Origin: Escherichia coli
GTDB lineage: Bacteria; Pseudomonadota; Gammaproteobacteria; Enterobacterales; Enterobacteriaceae
Direction: 5' to 3' (one strand)
Assembly (NCBI RefSeq): GCF_001677475.2
Contig: NZ_CP015229.1
Length of the DNA stretch: 64,000 nt
Part shown: positions 47,376 to 61,119 of the stretch, in pieces
Layout of the letters: every line of letters begins with the position of its first letter
Position numbering within the stretch: the first letter of the stretch is position 1
The notes under the pieces: generated by a model
Told to the model about the DNA's origin: nothing
Databases searched by the model: none
Seen by the model: only the letters and a program-made list of their open reading frames with translations
Position numbers and translations under genes: made by a program

Positions 47376-50300
47376 ATGGCAAACTTTTTTATTCGACGAC
47401 CGATATTTGCATGGGTGCTGGCCATTATTCTGATGATGGCGGGCGCACTGGCGATCCTACAATTGCCCGTCGCCCAGTATCCAACCATTGCGCCGCCCGC
47501 GGTTTCTGTTTCGGCAAACTATCCGGGCGCTGATGCGCAGACCGTGCAGGATACGGTGACGCAGGTTATCGAACAGAATATGAATGGTATCGATAACCTG
47601 ATGTATATGTCCTCCACCAGCGATTCCGCCGGTAGCGTGACAATTACCCTTACCTTCCAGTCCGGGACCGATCCAGATATCGCGCAAGTGCAAGTGCAGA
47701 ACAAACTCCAGCTCGCCACGCCGTTGCTGCCGCAGGAGGTTCAGCAGCAGGGGATCAGTGTTGAAAAGTCCAGTAGCAGCTATTTGATGGTGGCGGGCTT
47801 TGTCTCTGATAACCCAGGCACCACACAGGACGATATCTCGGACTATGTGGCCTCTAACGTTAAAGATACGCTTAGCCGTCTGAATGGCGTCGGTGACGTA
47901 CAGCTTTTCGGCGCACAGTATGCGATGCGTATCTGGCTGGACGCCGATCTGCTAAACAAATATAAACTGACACCGGTTGATGTGATTAACCAGTTGAAGG
48001 TACAGAACGATCAGATCGCTGCCGGACAGTTGGGCGGAACGCCAGCGTTACCAGGGCAACAGTTGAATGCCTCGATTATTGCTCAAACGCGGTTAAAAAA
48101 TCCGGAAGAATTCGGCAAAGTGACCCTGCGCGTAAACAGTGACGGCTCGGTGGTACGCCTGAAAGATGTCGCACGGGTTGAACTTGGCGGTGAAAACTAT
48201 AACGTTATCGCTCGCATCAACGGAAAACCGGCGGCAGGTCTGGGTATTAAGCTGGCAACCGGTGCGAACGCTCTCGATACCGCGAAATCCATTAAGGCAA
48301 AACTAGCGGAATTACAGCCATTCTTTCCGCAGGGAATGAAGGTTCTCTACCCTTATGACACCACACCATTCGTCCAGCTTTCTATTCACGAAGTGGTAAA
48401 AACGCTGTTCGAAGCCATTATGCTGGTGTTCCTGGTGATGTATCTGTTCTTGCAGAATATGCGAGCAACGCTGATCCCCACCATTGCGGTACCTGTGGTG
48501 TTGTTAGGGACGTTTGCCATCCTCGCCGCTTTTGGTTACTCCATCAACACACTAACGATGTTCGGGATGGTGCTTGCCATCGGGCTGCTCGTCGATGATG
48601 CGATAGTGGTGGTGGAGAACGTCGAGCGCGTGATGATGGAGGATAAGCTCCCGCCAAAAGAAGCGACGGAAAAATCAATGTCGCAAATCCAGGGCGCACT
48701 GGTGGGTATCGCGATGGTGCTGTCAGCGGTATTTATTCCAATGGCATTCTTCGGCGGTTCTACTGGGGCAATTTACCGCCAGTTCTCTATCACCATCGTT
48801 TCGGCAATGGCGCTTTCTGTTCTGGTGGCATTGATTCTTACCCCAGCGTTATGTGCAACACTGCTCAAACCCGTCTCTGCTGAGCATCACGAAAATAAGG
48901 GCGGTTTCTTCGGCTGGTTTAATACCACCTTCGATCATAGCGTTAACCACTACACCAACAGCGTCGGCAAAATCCTCGGTTCCACAGGACGATATTTACT
49001 GATCTATGCGCTGATTGTTGCAGGAATGGTGGTGTTGTTTTTACGTCTTCCGTCTTCCGTCTTACCTGAAGAGGATCAGGGTGTCTTTCTGACTATGATT
49101 CAGTTACCCGCTGGCGCGACGCAAGAGCGGACGCAAAAAGTGTTGGATCAAGTGACGGATTACTATCTGAAGAACGAGAAAGCGAACGTTGAAAGTGTTT
49201 TTACGGTTAACGGCTTTAGCTTCAGCGGCCAGGCACAAAACGCCGGTATGGCCTTCGTCAGTCTGAAACCGTGGGAAGAGCGTAATGGTGATGAAAACAG
49301 TGCGGAAGCGGTAATCCATCGTGCCAAAATGGAATTGGGCAAGATTCGCGACGGTTTTGTCATTCCATTCAATATGCCAGCCATTGTTGAACTGGGCACG
49401 GCAACGGGTTTCGACTTTGAGTTAATTGATCAGGCTGGGCTGGGTCACGATGCCCTAACCCAGGCCCGTAACCAGTTGCTTGGCATGGCGGCGCAACATC
49501 CTGCCAGCTTAGTCAGCGTGCGTCCTAATGGCCTGGAAGACACCGCGCAGTTTAAACTGGAAGTTGACCAGGAAAAGGCGCAAGCATTAGGTGTTTCACT
49601 TTCTGACATCAATCAGACCATTTCAACGGCGTTGGGTGGGACTTACGTTAACGACTTCATCGACCGTGGTCGCGTGAAAAAGGTGTATGTTCAGGCGGAT
49701 GCCAAATTCCGTATGCTGCCAGAAGATGTCGATAAACTTTATGTCCGCAGCGCCAACGGCGAAATGGTGCCATTCTCGGCCTTTACCACTTCACATTGGG
49801 TATATGGCTCTCCGCGGCTGGAACGCTACAACGGTCTGCCGTCAATGGAGATTCAGGGGGAAGCCGCGCCAGGAACCAGTTCCGGCGATGCCATGGCGTT
49901 GATGGAAAACCTTGCGTCAAAATTACCTGCGGGCATTGGTTATGACTGGACGGGTATGTCGTATCAGGAACGCTTATCGGGAAACCAGGCTCCCGCTCTG
50001 GTAGCAATTTCCTTTGTGGTTGTTTTCCTGTGCCTTGCTGCACTCTATGAAAGCTGGTCAATTCCTGTCTCGGTTATGTTGGTCGTGCCGTTAGGGATTG
50101 TCGGCGTGCTACTGGCGGCGACACTCTTTAATCAAAAAAATGACGTCTACTTTATGGTGGGCTTGCTAACGACAATTGGCTTGTCGGCTAAAAACGCTAT
50201 TTTGATTGTTGAGTTCGCTAAAGATCTCATGGAGAAAGAGGGTAAAGGTGTTGTTGAAGCGACACTAATGGCAGTACGTATGCGTCTGCGTCCTATCCTG

Positions 50301-50480
50301 ATGACCTCTCTCGCCTTTATTCTCGGCGTATTACCGCTAGCTATCAGTAACGGTGCCGGCAGTGGCGCGCAGAACGCAGTGGGTATCGGGGTAATGGGCG
50401 GGATGGTCTCTGCAACGTTGCTGGCAATCTTCTTCGTGCCGGTGTTCTTTGTGGTGATCCGCCGTTGCTTTAAAGGATAA
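47376..50480 (+). CDS. acrF: RND multidrug efflux transporter AcrF
   Basis: 1034-aa ORF ([23 protein letters not shown]...). Confidence 0.95.
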
Positions 50481-50491
50481 ATCAGAAACAT

Positions 50492-50520
50492 AAAGGCACT
50501 TTCGGGTGCCTTTATTATTT
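50492..50520 (+). terminator. Intrinsic terminator after acrF
   Basis: aaaggcac-tttcggg-tgccttt followed by attattt. Confidence 0.65.
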
Positions 50521-50732
50521 CCAGTGAAACCCATAAAAATTAATAAGATATTCCTCTACTCACTCTTTAAAAACTTTCTATAGTTCCCGCTCCCTTCACT
50601 ATTTTTACAATTCACATAATTTGTCATTATTCATTCCGCAAGATTTATAACCTCCAGTGATAAAATGGCATTCAGCTCGTTAATAAGAGAGTTAACTTAT
50701 TAAGCGTTAGCGTTTATTACTGAGGTAACACC

Positions 50733-50954
50733 ATGAAAAGATTAATTCCTGTGGCATTGCTCACCGCATTGCTGGCGGGCTGTGCTCACGATTCGCCCTG
50801 CGTTCCGGTTTATGACGATCAGGGTCGACTGGTTCACACTAATACCTGTATGAAAGGCACGACTCAGGATAACTGGGAAACGGCTGGGGCTATTGCTGGC
50901 GGGGCAGCAGCTGTTGCTGGCCTGACGATGGGGATCATCGCTCTGTCGAAATAA
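50733..50954 (+). CDS. yhdV: Small lipoprotein YhdV
   Basis: 73-aa ORF with lipobox LLAGC and Gly/Ala-rich C-terminal TM-like segment. Confidence 0.85.
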   Translation: MKRLIPVALLTALLAGCAHDSPCVPVYDDQGRLVHTNTCMKGTTQDNWETAGAIAGGAAAVAGLTMGIIALSK

Positions 50955-51384
50955 CTGAACAGAGCGCGGAGTACCGCGCTCTGTTTAACGATACAGTATC
51001 TCACCATAAGATAAAATATTGCTATATTCTGCTGGGTAATTCCCTGCTGATTTAGCATGTTATATCGCGTTATTTCGCTGCTTTCGAAATAACGCATCAA
51101 TTTAATTTTCACACTTCCTACCAGAAATATACTCACGCTAACAATCATTATTCTGCTTAGTAAAAAACGCGTAAATATTTTGCGCCAAAATGTGGCGCAT
51201 GTTTCATTTTCGCACCATTGCGGGGCGCTGTTTTTATTATTTCCTGTCTACACTCAGCTTATTGCGACGCGAAATCGTGCGCAAAAGCTGGCACTACTTT
51301 TGCTTATAAGAGGATGGCCACAGACAGGTAAAAGACGTTTCCCAAATGTCCTATAACGATAATTTTCGCCTCACAGGAAGCATT

Positions 51385-52410
51385 ATGAAAAAGATGATGA
51401 TAGCCACACTGGCTGCCGCCAGCGTGCTGCTTGCCGTTGCAAATCAGGCGCATGCTGGTGCGACGCTTGATGCCGTTCAGAAAAAAGGTTTTGTGCAATG
51501 CGGGATCAGTGATGGATTACCTGGGTTCTCTTATGCCGATGCTGACGGTAAGTTTTCAGGTATTGATGTAGATGTTTGTCGTGGTGTTGCGGCAGCTGTA
51601 TTTGGTGACGACACGAAAGTGAAATATACCCCGCTCACTGCAAAAGAACGCTTCACGGCTTTACAGTCAGGGGAGGTGGATTTGCTCTCCCGTAATACGA
51701 CCTGGACTTCATCTCGCGATGCCGGGATGGGAATGGCATTTACCGGCGTCACTTATTACGACGGCATTGGCTTCCTGACTCACGATAAAGCGGGACTAAA
51801 AAGCGCGAAAGAACTGGATGGCGCTACCGTCTGTATTCAGGCGGGTACTGATACCGAACTCAACGTTGCCGATTACTTTAAGGCAAACAATATGAAGTAC
51901 ACACCAGTGACTTTCGATCGCTCTGACGAATCAGCGAAGGCACTGGAATCTGGTCGCTGCGATACGCTGGCCTCGGATCAATCACAACTGTATGCCCTGC
52001 GCATCAAATTAAGCAACCCGGCTGAATGGATTGTCTTACCGGAAGTTATCTCCAAAGAACCGCTTGGGCCGGTAGTTCGTCGTGGCGATGATGAATGGTT
52101 CTCGATTGTACGCTGGACGCTTTTCGCCATGCTGAATGCTGAAGAGATGGGCATCAATTCCCAGAACGTCGATGAAAAAGCGGCTAATCCAGCAACGCCT
52201 GATATGGCACATCTGCTGGGTAAAGAAGGCGATTACGGCAAGGATCTGAAGCTGGATAATAAATGGGCTTACAACATCATCAAACAGGTGGGTAACTACT
52301 CGGAAATTTTTGAGCGTAACGTAGGTTCAGAAAGCCCGCTGAAAATTAAACGTGGGCAAAATAATCTCTGGAATAACGGCGGTATTCAGTACGCGCCGCC
52401 CGTGCGTTAA
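51385..52410 (+). CDS. yhdW: Polar amino acid ABC transporter periplasmic binding protein YhdW
   Basis: ORF trimmed to ATG 51385 (AGGAAG RBS) giving 341 aa with signal peptide. Confidence 0.88.
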   Translation: MKKMMIATLAAASVLLAVANQAHAGATLDAVQKKGFVQCGISDGLPGFSYADADGKFSGIDVDVCRGVAAAVFGDDTKVKYTPLTAKERFTALQSGEVDLLSRNTTWTSSRDAGMGMAFTGVTYYDGIGFLTHDKAGLKSAKELDGATVCIQAGTDTELNVADYFKANNMKYTPVTFDRSDESAKALESGRCDTLASDQSQLYALRIKLSNPAEWIVLPEVISKEPLGPVVRRGDDEWFSIVRWTLFAMLNAEEMGINSQNVDEKAANPATPDMAHLLGKEGDYGKDLKLDNKWAYNIIKQVGNYSEIFERNVGSESPLKIKRGQNNLWNNGGIQYAPPVR

Positions 52411-52477
52411 GTCGGTGTGAGGTAACGAGCGTCGCTACGGCGGCGCTCTCTTCAGCGTTATGCTTTCCGAGGTTTCT

Positions 52478-53659
52478 ATGTCTCATCGCCGCTCAACCGT
52501 TAAAGGCTCACTCTCCTTTGCCAACCCTACGGTTCGCGCCTGGTTATTCCAGATCCTTGCCGTTGTTGCTGTTGTCGGCATTGTTGGTTGGTTATTTCAC
52601 AACACTGTAACGAATCTCAATAATCGTGGCATTACTTCAGGTTTTGCCTTTCTGGATCGCGGCGCTGGCTTCGGTATTGTCCAGCATTTGATCGATTACC
52701 AGCAGGGCGACACCTACGGACGCGTTTTCATTGTTGGCTTACTCAATACGCTACTGGTTTCTGCATTGTGTATTGTATTCGCTTCTGTTCTGGGCTTCTT
52801 TATCGGTCTGGCGCGACTTTCGGATAACTGGCTGCTACGAAAGCTTTCCACAATTTATATTGAGATCTTCCGTAATATTCCGCCGCTGCTGCAAATCTTC
52901 TTCTGGTACTTTGCCGTGTTGCGCAATTTGCCCGGACCACGCCAGGCTGTGAGCGCGTTTGATCTGGCCTTTTTGAGCAATCGTGGGCTTTATATTCCGT
53001 CACCACAGCTGGGAGACGGATTTATTGCGTTTATCCTGGCTGTTGTTATGGCTATAGTCCTTTCTGTTGGGCTATTCCGCTTTAATAAAACATACCAGAT
53101 AAAGACCGGACAGCTGCGCCGCACCTGGCCGATCGCCGCAGTGTTGATCATTGGTTTGCCTTTACTGGCGCAATGGCTTTTTGGCGCAGCACTACACTGG
53201 GATGTCCCAGCCCTACGAGGCTTTAACTTCCGCGGCGGGATGGTTTTAATTCCTGAACTGGCAGCCTTAACGCTGGCACTTTCGGTTTATACCTCTGCAT
53301 TTATCGCCGAGATTATCCGCGCTGGGATCCAGGCAGTGCCTTATGGTCAACATGAAGCTGCTCGGTCACTGGGATTACCCAACCCGGTTACGCTACGCCA
53401 GGTCATTATTCCCCAGGCACTGCGGGTGATTATTCCACCGTTAACCAGCCAGTATCTCAACATCGTCAAAAACTCCTCTCTTGCCGCCGCTATTGGCTAT
53501 CCCGATATGGTTTCGCTGTTTGCCGGCACCGTGCTGAACCAGACGGGGCAAGCCATCGAGACGATAGCCATGACCATGTCGGTCTATCTGATTATCAGCC
53601 TGACTATCTCGCTGCTGATGAATATCTATAACCGCCGCATCGCGATCGTTGAACGCTAA
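52478..53659 (+). CDS. yhdX: Amino acid ABC transporter permease YhdX
   Basis: ORF trimmed to ATG giving 393 aa (MSHRRSTVKGSLSFANPTVRAWLFQ...). Confidence 0.9.
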   Translation: MSHRRSTVKGSLSFANPTVRAWLFQILAVVAVVGIVGWLFHNTVTNLNNRGITSGFAFLDRGAGFGIVQHLIDYQQGDTYGRVFIVGLLNTLLVSALCIVFASVLGFFIGLARLSDNWLLRKLSTIYIEIFRNIPPLLQIFFWYFAVLRNLPGPRQAVSAFDLAFLSNRGLYIPSPQLGDGFIAFILAVVMAIVLSVGLFRFNKTYQIKTGQLRRTWPIAAVLIIGLPLLAQWLFGAALHWDVPALRGFNFRGGMVLIPELAALTLALSVYTSAFIAEIIRAGIQAVPYGQHEAARSLGLPNPVTLRQVIIPQALRVIIPPLTSQYLNIVKNSSLAAAIGYPDMVSLFAGTVLNQTGQAIETIAMTMSVYLIISLTISLLMNIYNRRIAIVER

Positions 53660-53668
53660 GGAGTCATG

Positions 53669-54772
53669 ATGACAAAAGTATTGCTGTCTCATCCCCCGCG
53701 CCCGGCGAGCCATAACTCAAGCCGCGCTATGGTGTGGGTGCGAAAAAATCTGTTCTCCAGCTGGAGCAATAGCCTACTGACTATTGGCTGCATATGGTTG
53801 ATGTGGGAACTGATCCCACCGTTGCTGAACTGGGCATTTTTGCAGGCTAACTGGGTTGGCTCAACGCGTGCCGACTGCACAAAAGCCGGTGCCTGTTGGG
53901 TCTTCATCCACGAACGATTTGGTCAATTTATGTATGGGCTTTACCCACACGACCAACGCTGGCGATTTAACCTCGCATTACTGATTGGGCTTGTGTCGAT
54001 CGCACCAATGTTCTGGAAAATACTCCCGTATCGCGGTCGCTATATTGCGGTATGGGCGGTGATTTACCCACTGATTGTCTGGTGGCTGATGTATGGCGGG
54101 TTTCTTGGTCTTGAGCGGGTTGAAACCCGGCAATGGGGCGGGCTGACGCTAACTTTAATTATTGCATCAGTTGGGATTGCGGGGGCGCTGCCGTGGGGGA
54201 TCTTACTGGCGTTAGGTCGCCGCTCCCATATGCCGATTGTGCGTATCTTATCGGTCATTTTTATCGAGTTCTGGCGCGGTGTACCGCTGATTACCGTTCT
54301 GTTTATGTCTTCGGTCATGCTGCCGTTGTTTATGGCAGAAGGCACCAGTATCGACAAATTGATCCGCGCGCTGGTTGGCGTGATCCTGTTTCAGTCAGCA
54401 TATGTTGCGGAAGTCGTGCGAGGCGGATTACAGGCGCTGCCTAAAGGGCAATATGAAGCGGCAGAGTCGCTGGCGTTGGGTTACTGGAAAACCCAGGGGC
54501 TGGTTATTCTGCCACAGGCGTTGAAGCTGGTGATTCCTGGGCTGGTAAATACCATCATCGCACTTTTCAAAGATACCAGCCTGGTGATCATCATCGGGTT
54601 GTTCGATCTTTTCAGTAGCGTTCAGCAGGCAACCGTTGATCCCGCCTGGTTGGGTATGTCGACAGAAGGGTATGTTTTCGCCGCACTGATCTACTGGATC
54701 TTCTGTTTCAGCATGTCACGTTATAGCCAACATCTGGAAAAACGTTTTAACACCGGGCGTACACCGCATTGA
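53669..54772 (+). CDS. yhdY: Amino acid ABC transporter permease YhdY
   Basis: ORF trimmed by one codon to give 367 aa. Confidence 0.9.
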
Positions 54773-54779
54773 GGACACT

Positions 54780-55538
54780 ATGAGCCAAATTTTACTGCAA
54801 CCTGCTAACGCGATGATTACGCTGGAAAACGTCAATAAATGGTATGGACAATTCCATGTTTTGAAAAATATAAATTTGACCGTGCAACCGGGAGAACGGA
54901 TCGTTCTGTGTGGCCCTTCTGGTTCCGGTAAATCGACAACCATTCGTTGTATTAATCATCTGGAAGAACATCAACAGGGACGGATCGTGGTGGATGGCAT
55001 CGAACTTAATGAAGATATCCGCAATATTGAGCGCGTCAGGCAGGAAGTGGGAATGGTCTTTCAGCATTTCAATCTCTTCCCTCATCTGACCGTTCTACAG
55101 AACTGTACCCTGGCACCGATTTGGGTACGCAAGATGCCTAAAAAAGAGGCTGAAGCTCTGGCGATGCATTACCTTGAGCGGGTGAGAATTGCCGAACATG
55201 CCCAGAAGTTTCCCGGACAGATTTCGGGTGGTCAGCAGCAACGCGTTGCCATAGCACGTTCACTTTGTATGAAACCAAAGATCATGCTATTTGATGAACC
55301 TACGTCGGCGCTCGATCCGGAGATGGTGAAAGAGGTGCTGGATACGATGATTGGACTGGCGCAATCGGGTATGACAATGTTGTGTGTAACGCATGAGATG
55401 GGGTTTGCGCGAACCGTCGCTGACCGGGTGATTTTTATGGAGCGTGGGGAAATAGTGGAGCAAGCTGCACCTGATGAATTTTTTGCGCATCCTAAATCAG
55501 AGCGTACGAGGGCATTTTTATCGCAGGTAATCCATTAA
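54780..55538 (+). CDS. yhdZ: Amino acid ABC transporter ATP-binding protein YhdZ
   Basis: 252-aa ORF, Walker [13 protein letters not shown] signature SGGQQQR. Confidence 0.93.
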
Positions 55539-55558
55539 TTGAATGTTAGTTCGAAAAG

Positions 55559-55590
55559 CAAAAAGGCCATCCTTTCGGATGGCCTTTCGC
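55559..55590. terminator. rrnD distal terminator (T2-like); also placed to terminate yhdZ
   Basis: aaaaaggccatcc-tttc-ggatggccttt: perfect hairpin with A-run one side and T-rich tract the other. Confidence 0.6.
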
Positions 55591-55720
55591 TTGATTTGAT
55601 GTCTGGCAGTTTATGGCGGCGTCCTGCCCGCCACCCTCCGGGCCGTTGCTTCGCAACGTTCAAATCCGCTCCCGGCGGATTTGTCCTACTCGGGAGAGTG
55701 TTCACCGACAAACAGCAGAT

Positions 55721-55760
55721 AAAACAAAAGGCCCAGTCTTCCGACTGAGCCTTTTGTTTT
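55721..55760 (-). terminator. rrnD proximal terminator (T1-like) just downstream of the distal 5S gene
   Basis: aaaacaaaaggcccagtcttccgactgagccttttgtttt: symmetric hairpin. Confidence 0.65.
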
Positions 55761-55765
55761 ATTTG

Positions 55766-55885
55766 ATGTCTGGCAGTTCCCTACTCTCGCATGGGGAGAC
55801 CCCACACTACCATCGGCGCTACGGCGTTTCACTTCTGAGTTCGGCATGGGGTCAGGTGGGACCACCGCGCTACTGCCGCCAGACA
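55766..55885 (-). rRNA. rrfF: 5S ribosomal RNA, distal copy
   Basis: 120-nt reverse complement of E. coli 5S rRNA; variant 5' end (TGTCTGGCGGCAGTAGCG...) compared with the proximal copy. Confidence 0.9.
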
Positions 55886-55922
55886 AATTCTTTTCTAATC
55901 TGCCGAACTTTAACCTAAAAAG

Positions 55923-55998
55923 TGGTGCTGATACCCAGAGTCGAACTGGGGACCTCACCCTTACCAAGGGTGCGCTCTACCAACTGAGCCATATCAGC
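55923..55998 (-). tRNA. thrV: tRNA-Thr (GGU)
   Basis: 76-nt reverse complement of GCTGATATGGCTCAGTTGGTAGAGCGCACCCTTGGTAAGGGTGAGGTCCCCAGTTCGACTCTGGGTATCAGCACCA, encoded CCA. Confidence 0.9.
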
Positions 55999-56010
55999 AC
56001 GCTAAATTTG

Positions 56011-56130
56011 ATGCCTGGCAGTTCCCTACTCTCGCATGGGGAGACCCCACACTACCATCGGCGCTACGGCGTTTCACTTCTGAGTTCGGCATGGGGTCAG
56101 GTGGGACCACCGCGCTACGGCCGCCAGGCA
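56011..56130 (-). rRNA. rrfD: 5S ribosomal RNA, proximal copy
   Basis: 120-nt reverse complement of canonical 5S rRNA (TGCCTGGCGGCCGTAGCGCGG...). Confidence 0.93.
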
Positions 56131-56228
56131 AATTCTGTTTTATCAACACGTCATGTTCTGACCTGTCGATTTAATCTGTATCAGGCTGAAAATCTTCTCT
56201 CTATCCGCCAAAACATCTTCGGCGTTGT

Positions 56229-59131
<2,903 letters not shown>

Positions 59132-59314
59132 TCACAACCCGAAGATGTTTCTTTCGATGCATCATCGTGTTGCGAAAATTTGAGAGACTCACGAACAACT
59201 TTCGTTGTTCAGTGTTTCAATTTTCAGCTTGATCCAGATTTTTAAAGAGCAAAACTTCGCAGTGAACCTTTGCAGGTACACTCTGAAGTATTTTTTATTT
59301 AATCACTACAGAGA

Positions 59315-59577: not shown

Positions 59578-61119
<1,542 letters not shown>

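What the first reader, a model, noticed from the sequence alone, without database searches (positions are those of the whole stretch)
55559..56130. rrnD 3' tail: two 5S genes flanking tRNA-Thr, tandem terminators and a truncated 5S-like stub
The operon ends with 5S (56011-56130), tRNA-Thr (55923-55998), a second 5S with a variant sequence (55766-55885), a T1-like hairpin (55721-55760), a spacer holding the first ~25 nt of another 5S-like copy (about 55592-55616, gatttgatgtctggcagtttatggc), and a T2-like hairpin (55559-55590). This is the known architecture of the E. coli rrnD operon, but it explains the repeated 5S-like sequence in the window.
Basis: established knowledge. Interest (0 to 1): 0.2.

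Follow-up and report, generated by a model that had tools for sequence, protein, structure and literature searches.

The report
rrnD operon tail with rrF repeat
This is the well-known end of the E. coli-type rrnD ribosomal RNA operon, and the "truncated 5S stub" is the 18-base terminal repeat of an already described small-RNA element (rrF) lying between the two terminators, so the finding is ordinary.

Summary
The tail differs from E. coli K-12 rrnD at only 2 positions in about 640 nt.

Two corrections are needed.
- The stub is an exact 18-nt repeat, not about 25 nt. In gene orientation it is the last 13 nt of 5S plus the 5-nt trailer, not the start of a 5S.
- The T1–T2 interval is not a plain spacer. 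It is a tRNA-linked repeat (TLR), published as the sRNA gene rrF (Stenum et al. 2021, PMC8144298).

Supporting results:
- The stub does not score as 5S, and the spacer body has no 5S similarity.
- K-12 rrnG has 5S followed directly by T2. So rrnA/B/D equal rrnG plus a 168-bp unit bounded by the 18-bp repeat.
- Related loci from other genera keep the repeat and three body hairpins through compensatory changes.

Verdict: already known, low interest. The only local peculiarity is a private 1-nt deletion in body hairpin SL4.

The parts
56011..56130 (-). 5S rRNA gene 1 (rrfD orthologue), 120 nt
   Evidence: Rfam RF00001 at 92.8 bits. Identical to K-12 rrfD.
55923..55998 (-). tRNA-Thr(GGU) (thrV orthologue). 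It lies 12 nt after 5S-1 and 37 nt before 5S-2.
   Evidence: ARAGORN. Rfam tRNA at 70.7 bits. Identical to K-12 thrV.
55766..55885 (-). 5S rRNA gene 2 (rrfF orthologue). Variant with U3-A117 replacing C3-G117 in helix I, plus C12A.
   Evidence: Rfam at 90.2 bits. Differences listed. Identical to K-12 rrfF. Helix I forms in the predicted fold.
55761..55778 (-). Proximal copy of the 18-nt direct repeat AACTGCCAGACATCAAAT: the last 13 nt of 5S-2 plus the trailer CAAAT, which holds the known RNase E site 3 nt after 5S.
   Evidence: RNase E site as cited in PMC8144298.
55719..55762 (-). Terminator T1: 20-bp hairpin with a GGAA loop and a U-rich 3' arm.
   Evidence: Terminator scan. -29.5 kcal/mol. 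Aligns with rrnB T1.
55612..55718 (-). TLR body (rrF). It holds stem-loops SL2 (55661-55683), SL3 (55644-55658), a mini-hairpin (55633-55643) and SL4 (55615-55632). It carries five GGA motifs. A private 1-nt deletion lies in the 3' arm of SL4 near 55618, and a T-to-C change lies at 55715.
   Evidence: Folds. 99% identical to K-12 rrF. Compensatory changes across taxa. Weak Rfam RtT match at 19.3 bits. GGA positions.
55594..55611 (-). Distal copy of the 18-nt direct repeat.
   Evidence: Exact repeat. No 5S score. Present in rrnA, rrnB and rrnD, absent from rrnE and rrnG.
55591..55762 (-). Inferred long RrF transcript, 172 nt here. Ends are transferred by homology from the S1-mapped 173-nt RrB.
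   Evidence: Inference from PMC8144298 and the alignment. Not measured in this organism.
55558..55590 (-). Terminator T2: 12-bp core hairpin followed by UUUUUGCUUUU. It also reads as a terminator-like hairpin on the plus strand, 24 nt after the yhdZ stop codon.
   Evidence: Terminator scan, both strands. -21.8 kcal/mol. Aligns with rrnB T2.
55536..55538 (+). Stop codon of the convergent gene yhdZ (amino-acid ABC transporter ATPase). This flank identifies the operon as rrnD.
   Evidence: Sequence read. K-12 annotation. Annotated features under the matches.

Best explanation
The region is the distal end of an rrnD-type rRNA operon in E. coli or a very close relative. The order is 5S, tRNA-Thr, variant 5S, leaky terminator T1, a tRNA-linked repeat (TLR, the published sRNA gene rrF), and strong terminator T2 abutting the convergent gene yhdZ.

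The 'stub' is the distal copy of an 18-bp direct repeat made of the last 13 nt of 5S plus the CAAAT trailer. This repeat bounds a 167/168-bp unit (T1 plus TLR body) that is present in rrnA, rrnB and rrnD and absent from rrnG and rrnE.

How it most likely works:
1. Most polymerases stop at T1. A minority read through to T2 (published for rrnB).
2. RNase E cuts 3 nt after 5S and creates the RrF 5' end (published for RrB).
3. The repeated 5S-end/trailer sequence just before T2 recreates that processing context and helps define the RrF 3' end. This step is an inference, also proposed by the authors.
4. The released short-lived RNA has three conserved hairpins and five GGA motifs in its body, plus a sixth GGA in the T1 loop of the long form. 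It binds Hfq and CsrA (published in vitro and by pull-down for RrB), which ties a weak CsrA-titrating signal to the rate of rRNA transcription.

Shown here: the anatomy, the identity with K-12 rrnD/rrF, the filled-versus-empty site relation among operons, and conservation of the hairpins and repeat across genera. Taken from the literature or inferred: transcription, processing and protein binding.
For: - Gene identities and coordinates.
- K-12 annotation rrfD-thrV-rrfF-yhdZ, with 2 differences in about 640 nt.
- Co-linear alignment with rrnB T1-T2.
- The 18-mer is repeated far beyond chance.
- K-12 rrnG reads 5S + CAAAT + T2-type hairpin with the same downstream sequence as rrnA. rrnA, rrnB and rrnD carry the extra 168-bp unit between two copies of the 18-mer.
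- Loci found through the TLR core alone, which is unbiased for the stub, all keep the repeat. They include Atlantibacter, where the TLR lies between 5S and a downstream tRNA gene and has no T1 or T2.
- 19 metagenomic 5S-TLR cases: the free triplet in the stub equals that of the local 5S in 18 of 19. The duplicated module extends to the whole terminator in L023, L052 and L126.
- SL2, SL3, SL4 and T1 are kept by compensatory changes. 14 pairs have double changes, and per-sequence folds agree.
- Six GGA motifs in the inferred long RrF.
- Literature (PMC8144298): TLR definition, RrB ends, 173-nt and 113-115-nt forms, 2.5-min half-life, Hfq and CsrA binding, and the cited termination efficiencies of 87% for T1 and 100% for T2.
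Against: - No expression, processing or binding data exist for this organism. Everything functional is transferred from K-12.
- The published phenotypes of rrA, rrB, rrF deletion and overexpression are modest and paradoxical.
- The mapped RrB 3' end lies 8 nt after the 'CAU' of the stub, whereas the 5S site lies 3 nt after it. The two cuts are therefore not at equivalent positions.
- L089 shows that the stub and the 5S end can differ. The exact run can be as short as 14 nt (L065), or 9 nt in L089, where the mismatch interrupts it. Strict identity is therefore not required.
- The Rfam RtT model scores only 19.3 bits against a gathering score of 45. BLASTN against the classical tyrT TLR finds nothing significant. 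So placement in one 'TLR family' with the tRNA-linked elements rests on architecture and on the literature's classification.
- The window's SL4 carries a deletion that weakens the hairpin.
Confidence: 0.9

Rival explanations
1. The stub is the last recognisable piece of a third 5S gene that decayed in place. On this view the T1-T2 spacer is a 5S pseudogene, which is the reading implied by 'truncated 5S-like stub'.
For: - The distance from the 5S 3' end to the stub 3' end is 167 nt, about one 5S plus one terminator.
- A genuinely truncated 5S (about 43 nt of the 3' part) with a duplicated terminator exists in metagenome locus L045, so such events do happen.
Against: - The spacer body without the 13 shared nt is no more similar to 5S than shuffled sequence (global z = -0.13, local z = -0.89).
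- No 5S covariance-model match at E<=10.
- The left edge of the repeat is sharp at AACTGCC in every taxon.
- The body has its own conserved hairpins with compensatory changes. It gives a weak match to RtT and none to 5S.
Confidence: 0.04
2. The 18-nt repeat has no function of its own. It is a neutral scar of the duplication or recombination event that placed T1 plus the TLR body between 5S and T2, and the body RNA is a by-product of leaky termination with little biological role.
For: - Filled versus empty site relation among K-12 operons.
- The right edge of the repeat varies from 14 to 53 nt.
- L089 is discordant.
- The A in the rrnD stub is an old shared trait of rrnD orthologues, not repeated co-variation.
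- Modest, paradoxical phenotypes in the literature.
- The private SL4 deletion is tolerated in this organism.
Against: - The repeat is retained next to diverged flanks in several genera, including loci found without reference to it.
- The body hairpins are maintained by compensatory substitutions, which argues for selection on the RNA.
- Discrete, mapped RNA species and specific, GGA-dependent CsrA binding are published.
Confidence: 0.2
3. TLRs are footprints of a small insertion element or site-specific integration that targets the 3' ends of stable-RNA genes. The 18-19-bp repeat is then a target-site duplication, like the att-site duplication at tRNA genes.
For: - The direct repeat is always made from the local upstream gene. 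It is the 5S end here and the tRNA-Tyr end, four copies at 178-nt spacing, at tyrT.
- Presence or absence varies among paralogous operons.
- In Atlantibacter the element sits in a different context, still with the repeat.
Against: - No recombinase or transposase is associated with it.
- Tandem arrays at tyrT are explained equally well by unequal crossing-over.
- In some taxa the repeat extends through the whole terminator, which looks like segmental duplication, not a fixed-length target duplication.
- rrn-linked and tyrT-linked bodies share no significant sequence.
Confidence: 0.08

Closest known systems
Distal end of E. coli K-12 rrnD (rrfD-thrV-rrfF, T1, rrF, T2, convergent yhdZ)
   Same: Same gene order, spacings (12 and 37 nt) and flank. 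Identical 5S-1, tRNA-Thr and 5S-2, including U3, A12 and A117. Identical T1, stub and T2.
   Different: - One T-to-C change at 55715, shared with 1 of 5,426 E. coli genomes.
- A 1-nt deletion in SL4, shared with none.
- A different 23S-5S spacer variant upstream.
- Flanking genes are at most 98.9% identical to any complete E. coli genome.
rrnB T1-T2 region and the sRNA RrB (Stenum et al. 2021, PMC8144298); also the widely used cloning-vector terminator
   Same: Co-linear along its whole length: 18-nt repeat, T1, the body hairpins, stub and T2. Same GGA motifs in the body.
   Different: - In rrnD, both the 5S end and the stub read ...CCAGACAT. In rrnB both read ...CCAGGCAT.
- The T1 loop is GGAA here and GAAA in rrnB.
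- The T2 loop and the sequence after the stub differ (CAAGCGAAAGG versus TAAGCAGAAGG).
- The downstream flank differs.
Classical tRNA-linked repeats at tyrT-tyrV (RttR; Rfam RtT, RF00391)
   Same: Same architecture. The element lies directly downstream of a stable-RNA gene in the same transcript, and each unit ends with an 18-19-nt copy of that gene's 3' end. At tyrT the last 19 nt of tRNA-Tyr occur 4 times at 178-nt spacing.
   Different: - No significant primary-sequence similarity by BLASTN (best E = 1.4).
- The RtT covariance model aligns end to end but scores 19.3 bits, below its gathering score of 45.
- According to PMC8144298, only the rrn-linked TLRs are predicted to bind CsrA.
3'ETS-leuZ, an sRNA released from a tRNA operon spacer by RNase E
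   Same: It works in a similar way: a regulatory RNA cut out of a stable-RNA precursor, so its level follows transcription of that operon (as described in PMC8144298).
   Different: 3'ETS-leuZ acts as a sponge by base-pairing with other sRNAs. RrA, RrB and RrF are proposed to titrate the protein CsrA. No sequence relation was tested or is claimed.

Membership tests
rrnD-type rRNA operon tail | Order 23S, 5S, tRNA-Thr(GGU), 5S on one strand | tested here: met
   Matches the K-12 annotation.
rrnD-type rRNA operon tail | Chromosomal flank: convergent yhdZ (yhdWXYZ, acrEF) downstream | tested here: met
   yhdZ stop codon at 55536-55538.
rrnD-type rRNA operon tail | Second 5S carries the rrfF-specific U3/A117 helix-I pair | tested here: met
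5S rRNA (Rfam RF00001), applied to the stub and spacer | Scores as 5S with the covariance model | tested here: not met
   No 5S match at E<=10 in 55480-55770. The body shows no similarity to 5S beyond shuffles.
tRNA-linked repeat (TLR), rrn-linked subgroup rrA/rrB/rrF | Lies directly downstream of a stable-RNA gene, on the same strand and inside the operon's terminator region | tested here: met
tRNA-linked repeat (TLR), rrn-linked subgroup rrA/rrB/rrF | Its 3' end carries 18-19 bp identical to the 3' end region of the upstream gene | tested here: met
   18-nt exact repeat. Note that 13 nt lie inside mature 5S and 5 nt are trailer.
tRNA-linked repeat (TLR), rrn-linked subgroup rrA/rrB/rrF | Sequence identity with K-12 rrF and rrB | tested here: met
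   2 differences from K-12 rrnD. Co-linear with rrnB and rrnA.
tRNA-linked repeat (TLR), rrn-linked subgroup rrA/rrB/rrF | Conserved stem-loops 2-4 and GGA motifs in the body | tested here: met
   SL4 is weakened here from 7 bp to 5 bp by a private deletion.
tRNA-linked repeat (TLR), rrn-linked subgroup rrA/rrB/rrF | Transcribed by read-through of T1, processed to forms of about 173 and about 115 nt, and binds Hfq and CsrA | not testable with these tools
   Published for K-12 RrB only (PMC8144298).
Rfam RtT (RF00391), the tyrT-type TLR | Reaches the family's gathering score | tested here: not met
   19.3 bits against 45, E = 0.087 on 141 nt. BLASTN against the K-12 tyrT TLRs is not significant.
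Intrinsic (Rho-independent) terminator, for T1 and T2 | G+C-rich hairpin followed by a U run | tested here: met
   One search found 4 sites against 1.3 expected. Energies.
Intrinsic (Rho-independent) terminator, for T1 and T2 | Measured termination efficiency | not testable with these tools
   87% for T1 and 100% for T2 in rrnB, as cited in PMC8144298.

The most novel reading that the evidence does not exclude
The most novel reading not excluded has two alternative forms. In the first, the 18-19-nt terminal repeat of TLRs is a functional mimic of the 3' end of a stable RNA. It recruits the same maturation machinery (RNase E here) to release a regulatory RNA from read-through transcripts. In the second, TLRs are footprints of an unrecognised duplicative insertion process that targets the 3' ends of stable-RNA genes. 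The filled versus empty relation between rrnA/B/D and rrnG, and the Atlantibacter copy in a different context, fit either form.
Probability: 0.15. Interest if true: 0.4.

Novelty: already known. Interest (0 to 1): 0.1.

Why it matters
It matters little as a discovery. The rrnD tail has been sequenced since about 1980 (my recollection of Duester and Holmes 1980, not retrieved here). The repeat and the inter-terminator RNA are described in PMC8144298.

The practical value is for annotation:
- The T1-T2 interval is unannotated in RefSeq E. coli genomes ('none' under all matches).
- No Rfam family reaches threshold on it, so automated pipelines and naive readers will keep treating it as a spacer with a pseudogene fragment.
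- The same sequence sits in many expression vectors as the rrnB T1T2 terminator.

Tried and rejected
1. Decayed third 5S. Global and local alignment of the spacer body with 5S against 1000 dinucleotide shuffles gave z = -0.13 and -0.89. Rejected.
2. Rfam scan at a permissive E-value for a partial 5S in the stub region. Nothing found.
3. Pseudo-helix I. The segment after T1 (UGUCGGU, or GGCAGUU in L023 and Atlantibacter) can pair with the stub at about -10 kcal/mol and closes the predicted fold. Duplex energies are no better than shuffles (z from +0.4 to -2.3, mostly near 0). Not supported.
4. Stub and 5S co-variation as evidence of a constraint. rrnB is G/G and rrnD is A/A, and 18 of 19 metagenome cases agree. 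However, the A/A cases include rrnD orthologues (L021; yhdZ downstream). The orthologue L089 is discordant, with U3 and G117 in the 5S and A in the stub. So this is mostly shared ancestry, not independent events.
5. Direct BLASTN of the body against the K-12 tyrT TLR array. No significant hit.
6. The genome-contig scan with a strict 24-mer of the TLR core returned only 4 loci, too few for a taxonomic survey.
7. The metagenome pattern required AACTGCC...CAT in both copies. Conservation of those 10 bases in that set is therefore by construction. Only the free triplet and the flanks are informative.

Full report
**1. What is there**

Reading the minus strand and running Rfam and ARAGORN gives a complete rRNA operon:
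- 16S at 59578-61119.
- tRNA-Ile and tRNA-Ala.
- 23S at 56229-59131.
- 5S-1 at 56011-56130 (92.8 bits).
- tRNA-Thr(GGU) at 55923-55998.
- 5S-2 at 55766-55885 (90.2 bits).

The two 5S genes differ at C3U, C12A and G117A. Positions 3 and 117 pair in helix I, so the change is compensatory, and 5S-2 folds with an intact helix I.

The terminator scan finds two strong minus-strand hairpins:
- T1 at 55719-55762: 20 bp, -29.5 kcal/mol.
- T2 with a core at 55561-55588: 12 bp; -21.8 kcal/mol for 55558-55590.

The yhdZ stop codon lies at 55536-55538 on the plus strand.

The 18-mer AACTGCCAGACATCAAAT occurs exactly at 55761-55778 (the end of 5S-2 plus trailer) and at 55594-55611 (the 'stub'). It occurs with one mismatch at the end of 5S-1. 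Only 0.02 matches are expected by chance.

**2. Corrections to the description**

- The 5S-like match in the stub is 18 nt, not about 25.
- In gene orientation it is the last 13 nt of 5S plus the 5-nt trailer, not the beginning of a 5S.
- A permissive Rfam scan of 55480-55770 gives no 5S match at E<=10.

**3. Which operon, which organism**

- K-12 MG1655 annotates rrfD, thrV, rrfF and convergent yhdZ in this order.
- The window's tail differs from K-12 at only two positions in about 640 nt: a T-to-C change at 55715 and a 1-nt deletion near 55618.
- The flanking 5.5 kb (acrF, yhdWXYZ) is at most 98.9% identical to any of 5,426 complete E. coli genomes.
- The 23S-5S spacer is a variant unlike K-12 rrnD or rrnB. 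It is closest (98.3%) to an operon of B2-phylogroup strains.
- The source is therefore E. coli in the broad sense, or a very close relative such as Shigella, and is not a strain in that collection.

**4. What the 'spacer plus stub' really is**

The T1-T2 interval aligns base for base with rrnB T1-T2. A literature search led to Stenum et al. 2021 (PMC8144298). That paper reports the following:
- The sequence between the two terminators of rrnA, rrnB and rrnD belongs to the tRNA-linked repeats (TLRs; Egan and Landy 1978 and Rudd 1999, as cited there). Their hallmark is an 18-19-bp 3'-terminal copy of the 3' end of the upstream tRNA or rRNA gene.
- The three rrn-linked TLRs are sRNA genes named rrA, rrB and rrF. 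They are transcribed by read-through of T1.
- The 5' end of the RNA lies at the RNase E site 3 nt after 5S. The 3' end lies 3 nt after the repeat.
- There is a 173-nt form and a 113-115-nt form enriched on Hfq. The half-life is about 2.5 min.
- The body has five GGA motifs, and CsrA binding in vitro depends on them. Phenotypes are modest.
- The paper cites termination efficiencies of 87% for T1 and 100% for T2.

By homology, the long RrF in this window would span 55762-55591. It contains six GGA motifs, one in the T1 loop and five in the body.

The Rfam RtT model, built on the tyrT TLRs, aligns end to end with 55604-55725 on the correct strand. It scores only 19.3 bits against a gathering score of 45.

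**5. My own tests of origin**

*Is the spacer a decayed 5S?* The 167-nt spacing suggested one 5S plus one terminator. However, the body without the shared 13 nt is no more similar to 5S than shuffled sequence (z = -0.13 and -0.89). Rejected.

*Comparison of K-12 operon tails.* rrnG reads 5S, CAAAT and then directly a T2-type hairpin, with the same downstream sequence as rrnA. rrnA, rrnB and rrnD carry an extra 168-bp unit (T1 plus body) between two copies of the 18-mer. The stub is therefore the junction repeat of an insertion, deletion or duplication unit.

*Related loci.*
- A scan with a 24-mer of the TLR core, unbiased with respect to the stub, returned four loci, and all keep the repeat.
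- In Atlantibacter the TLR lies between 5S and a downstream tRNA gene. It has no T1 or T2 but has the identical 18-mer on both sides.
- A metagenome scan left three helix-I positions free in both copies and gave 19 genuine 5S-TLR cases. The counts were AGG/AGG 16, AGA/AGA 2 and AGG/AGA 1.
- The left edge of the repeat is always AACTGCC. The right edge varies from 14 to 53 nt. In L023, L052 and L126, T2 is nearly a copy of T1 (49-53 of 55).
- So the duplicated module is the 5S end, the trailer and the terminator together. In E. coli the two hairpins have diverged, which leaves only 18 nt recognisable.

*Is the stub's A independent co-variation?* L021 (A/A) and L089 (discordant) have yhdZ downstream at about 94% amino-acid identity. 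L089 also shows 5S, tRNA-Thr and a 5S with U3. They are rrnD orthologues in other genera. The A in the stub is therefore an old shared rrnD trait and is not repeated co-variation. L089 also shows that the copies can drift apart.

**6. Is the body a structured RNA?**

- RNAalifold on 18 sequences finds 14 pairs with compensatory double changes.
- Per-sequence folds show SL2, SL3, a mini-hairpin and SL4 in nearly all sequences. L021 lacks SL2 and L065 has a degraded SL4.
- Stem sequences are replaced wholesale. SL3 appears as GTTGC/GCAAC, AGCAC/GTGCT and GTCGCC/GGCGAC. SL4 is entirely different in Atlantibacter.
- This agrees with the published LocARNA result.
- A possible closing stem between UGUCGGU and the stub appears in the predicted folds. 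It is no better than shuffles, so I do not claim it.

**7. Local peculiarities**

- The 1-nt deletion shortens SL4 from 7 bp with a 5-nt loop to 5 bp with an 8-nt loop. The body energy goes from -40.5 to -34.7 kcal/mol.
- No complete E. coli genome has this deletion, and none of the other 14 sequences with the E. coli-type SL4 has it.
- It lies in a CCC run, so it could be a sequencing error.
- The T-to-C change is shared only with strain N3.

**8. Comparison with the classical TLR**

At tyrT-tyrV the last 19 nt of tRNA-Tyr occur four times at 178-nt spacing. That is the same architecture. BLASTN between the rrF body and that array is not significant (best E = 1.4). Membership in the rrn-linked rrA/rrB/rrF group is firm. 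Common descent with the tRNA-linked TLRs is not shown here.

**9. Verdict**

The finding is real, correctly located and already known. Its reading of the stub, as the first 25 nt of a 5S-like copy in a spacer, is imprecise. It also misses that the interval is a described sRNA/TLR element whose defining feature is exactly this repeat. Interest is low.

Noticed in passing
window about 55618 (minus strand, 3' arm of SL4, 55615-55632): A 1-nt deletion in a CCC run shortens the GGA-loop hairpin SL4 from 7 bp to 5 bp. It is absent from all 5,426 complete E. coli genomes and from every related locus with this type of SL4. It could be a private allele or a homopolymer sequencing error.
   Followed up: partly
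window 56131-56228 (23S-5S spacer, minus strand): The spacer between 23S and 5S-1 reads ...AAATCGACAGGTCAGAACATGACGTGTTGATAAAAC..., unlike K-12 rrnD or rrnB. The best E. coli matches (98.3%) are single operons of B2-phylogroup strains such as UTI89 and NU14. This suggests exchange of spacers among operons or lineages.
   Followed up: partly
window 50000-55500 and the window as a whole: Flanking protein-coding DNA is at most 98.9% identical to any complete RefSeq E. coli genome. The source is therefore a lineage not represented there, possibly Shigella or a divergent E. coli. The organism was not identified.
   Followed up: partly
window 59139-59247 (minus strand): Rfam StyR-44 (RF01830, 123.8 bits) lies immediately upstream of the 23S gene in the 16S-23S spacer. 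This is a known rrn-associated family.
   Followed up: no
window 55562-55587 (plus strand): T2 also reads as a terminator-like hairpin on the plus strand, 24 nt after the yhdZ stop codon. It may act as a bidirectional terminator for the convergent yhdZ and rrnD transcripts. The plus-strand T run is poor (CGCTTGATTT).
   Followed up: no
window 55718-55729 and 56133-56144: The sequence GATAAAACAGAA just upstream of 5S-1 is complementary (11 of 12) to the 3' arm of T1 downstream of 5S-2 (inverted repeat I4). Put another way, the leader before 5S-1 resembles the 5' arm of T1. The significance is unknown and it may be chance.
   Followed up: no
L045 (metagenome contig Ga0308165_1007167), region around oriented positions 69-320: A genuinely truncated 5S (about 43 nt of the 3' part) followed by a duplicated terminator lies downstream of a full 5S and its terminator. 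There is no TLR body.
   Followed up: no
L023, L052, L126 (metagenome contigs): In these taxa, T2 is almost identical to T1 (49-53 of 55 nt). The direct repeat therefore spans the 5S end, the trailer and the whole terminator. This suggests recent duplication or homogenisation of the module.
   Followed up: partly
E. coli genome collection: The number of places that match the T1-T2 unit varies among E. coli genomes (median 2, range 1-9; K-12 has 3). About a quarter of genomes lack a full-length rrnD-type tail match. The copy number of the rrn-linked TLR therefore appears to vary within the species.
   Followed up: no
window 1-50000: No Rfam family reaches its gathering score anywhere in the first 50 kb of the window.
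   Followed up: no
L014, L046, L071 and similar loci (termite-gut and other metagenome contigs): The gapped pattern also hit tandem arrays rich in ...CACAGTAACTGCCCG... units. These have no 5S upstream and are unrelated to rRNA operons.
   Followed up: no
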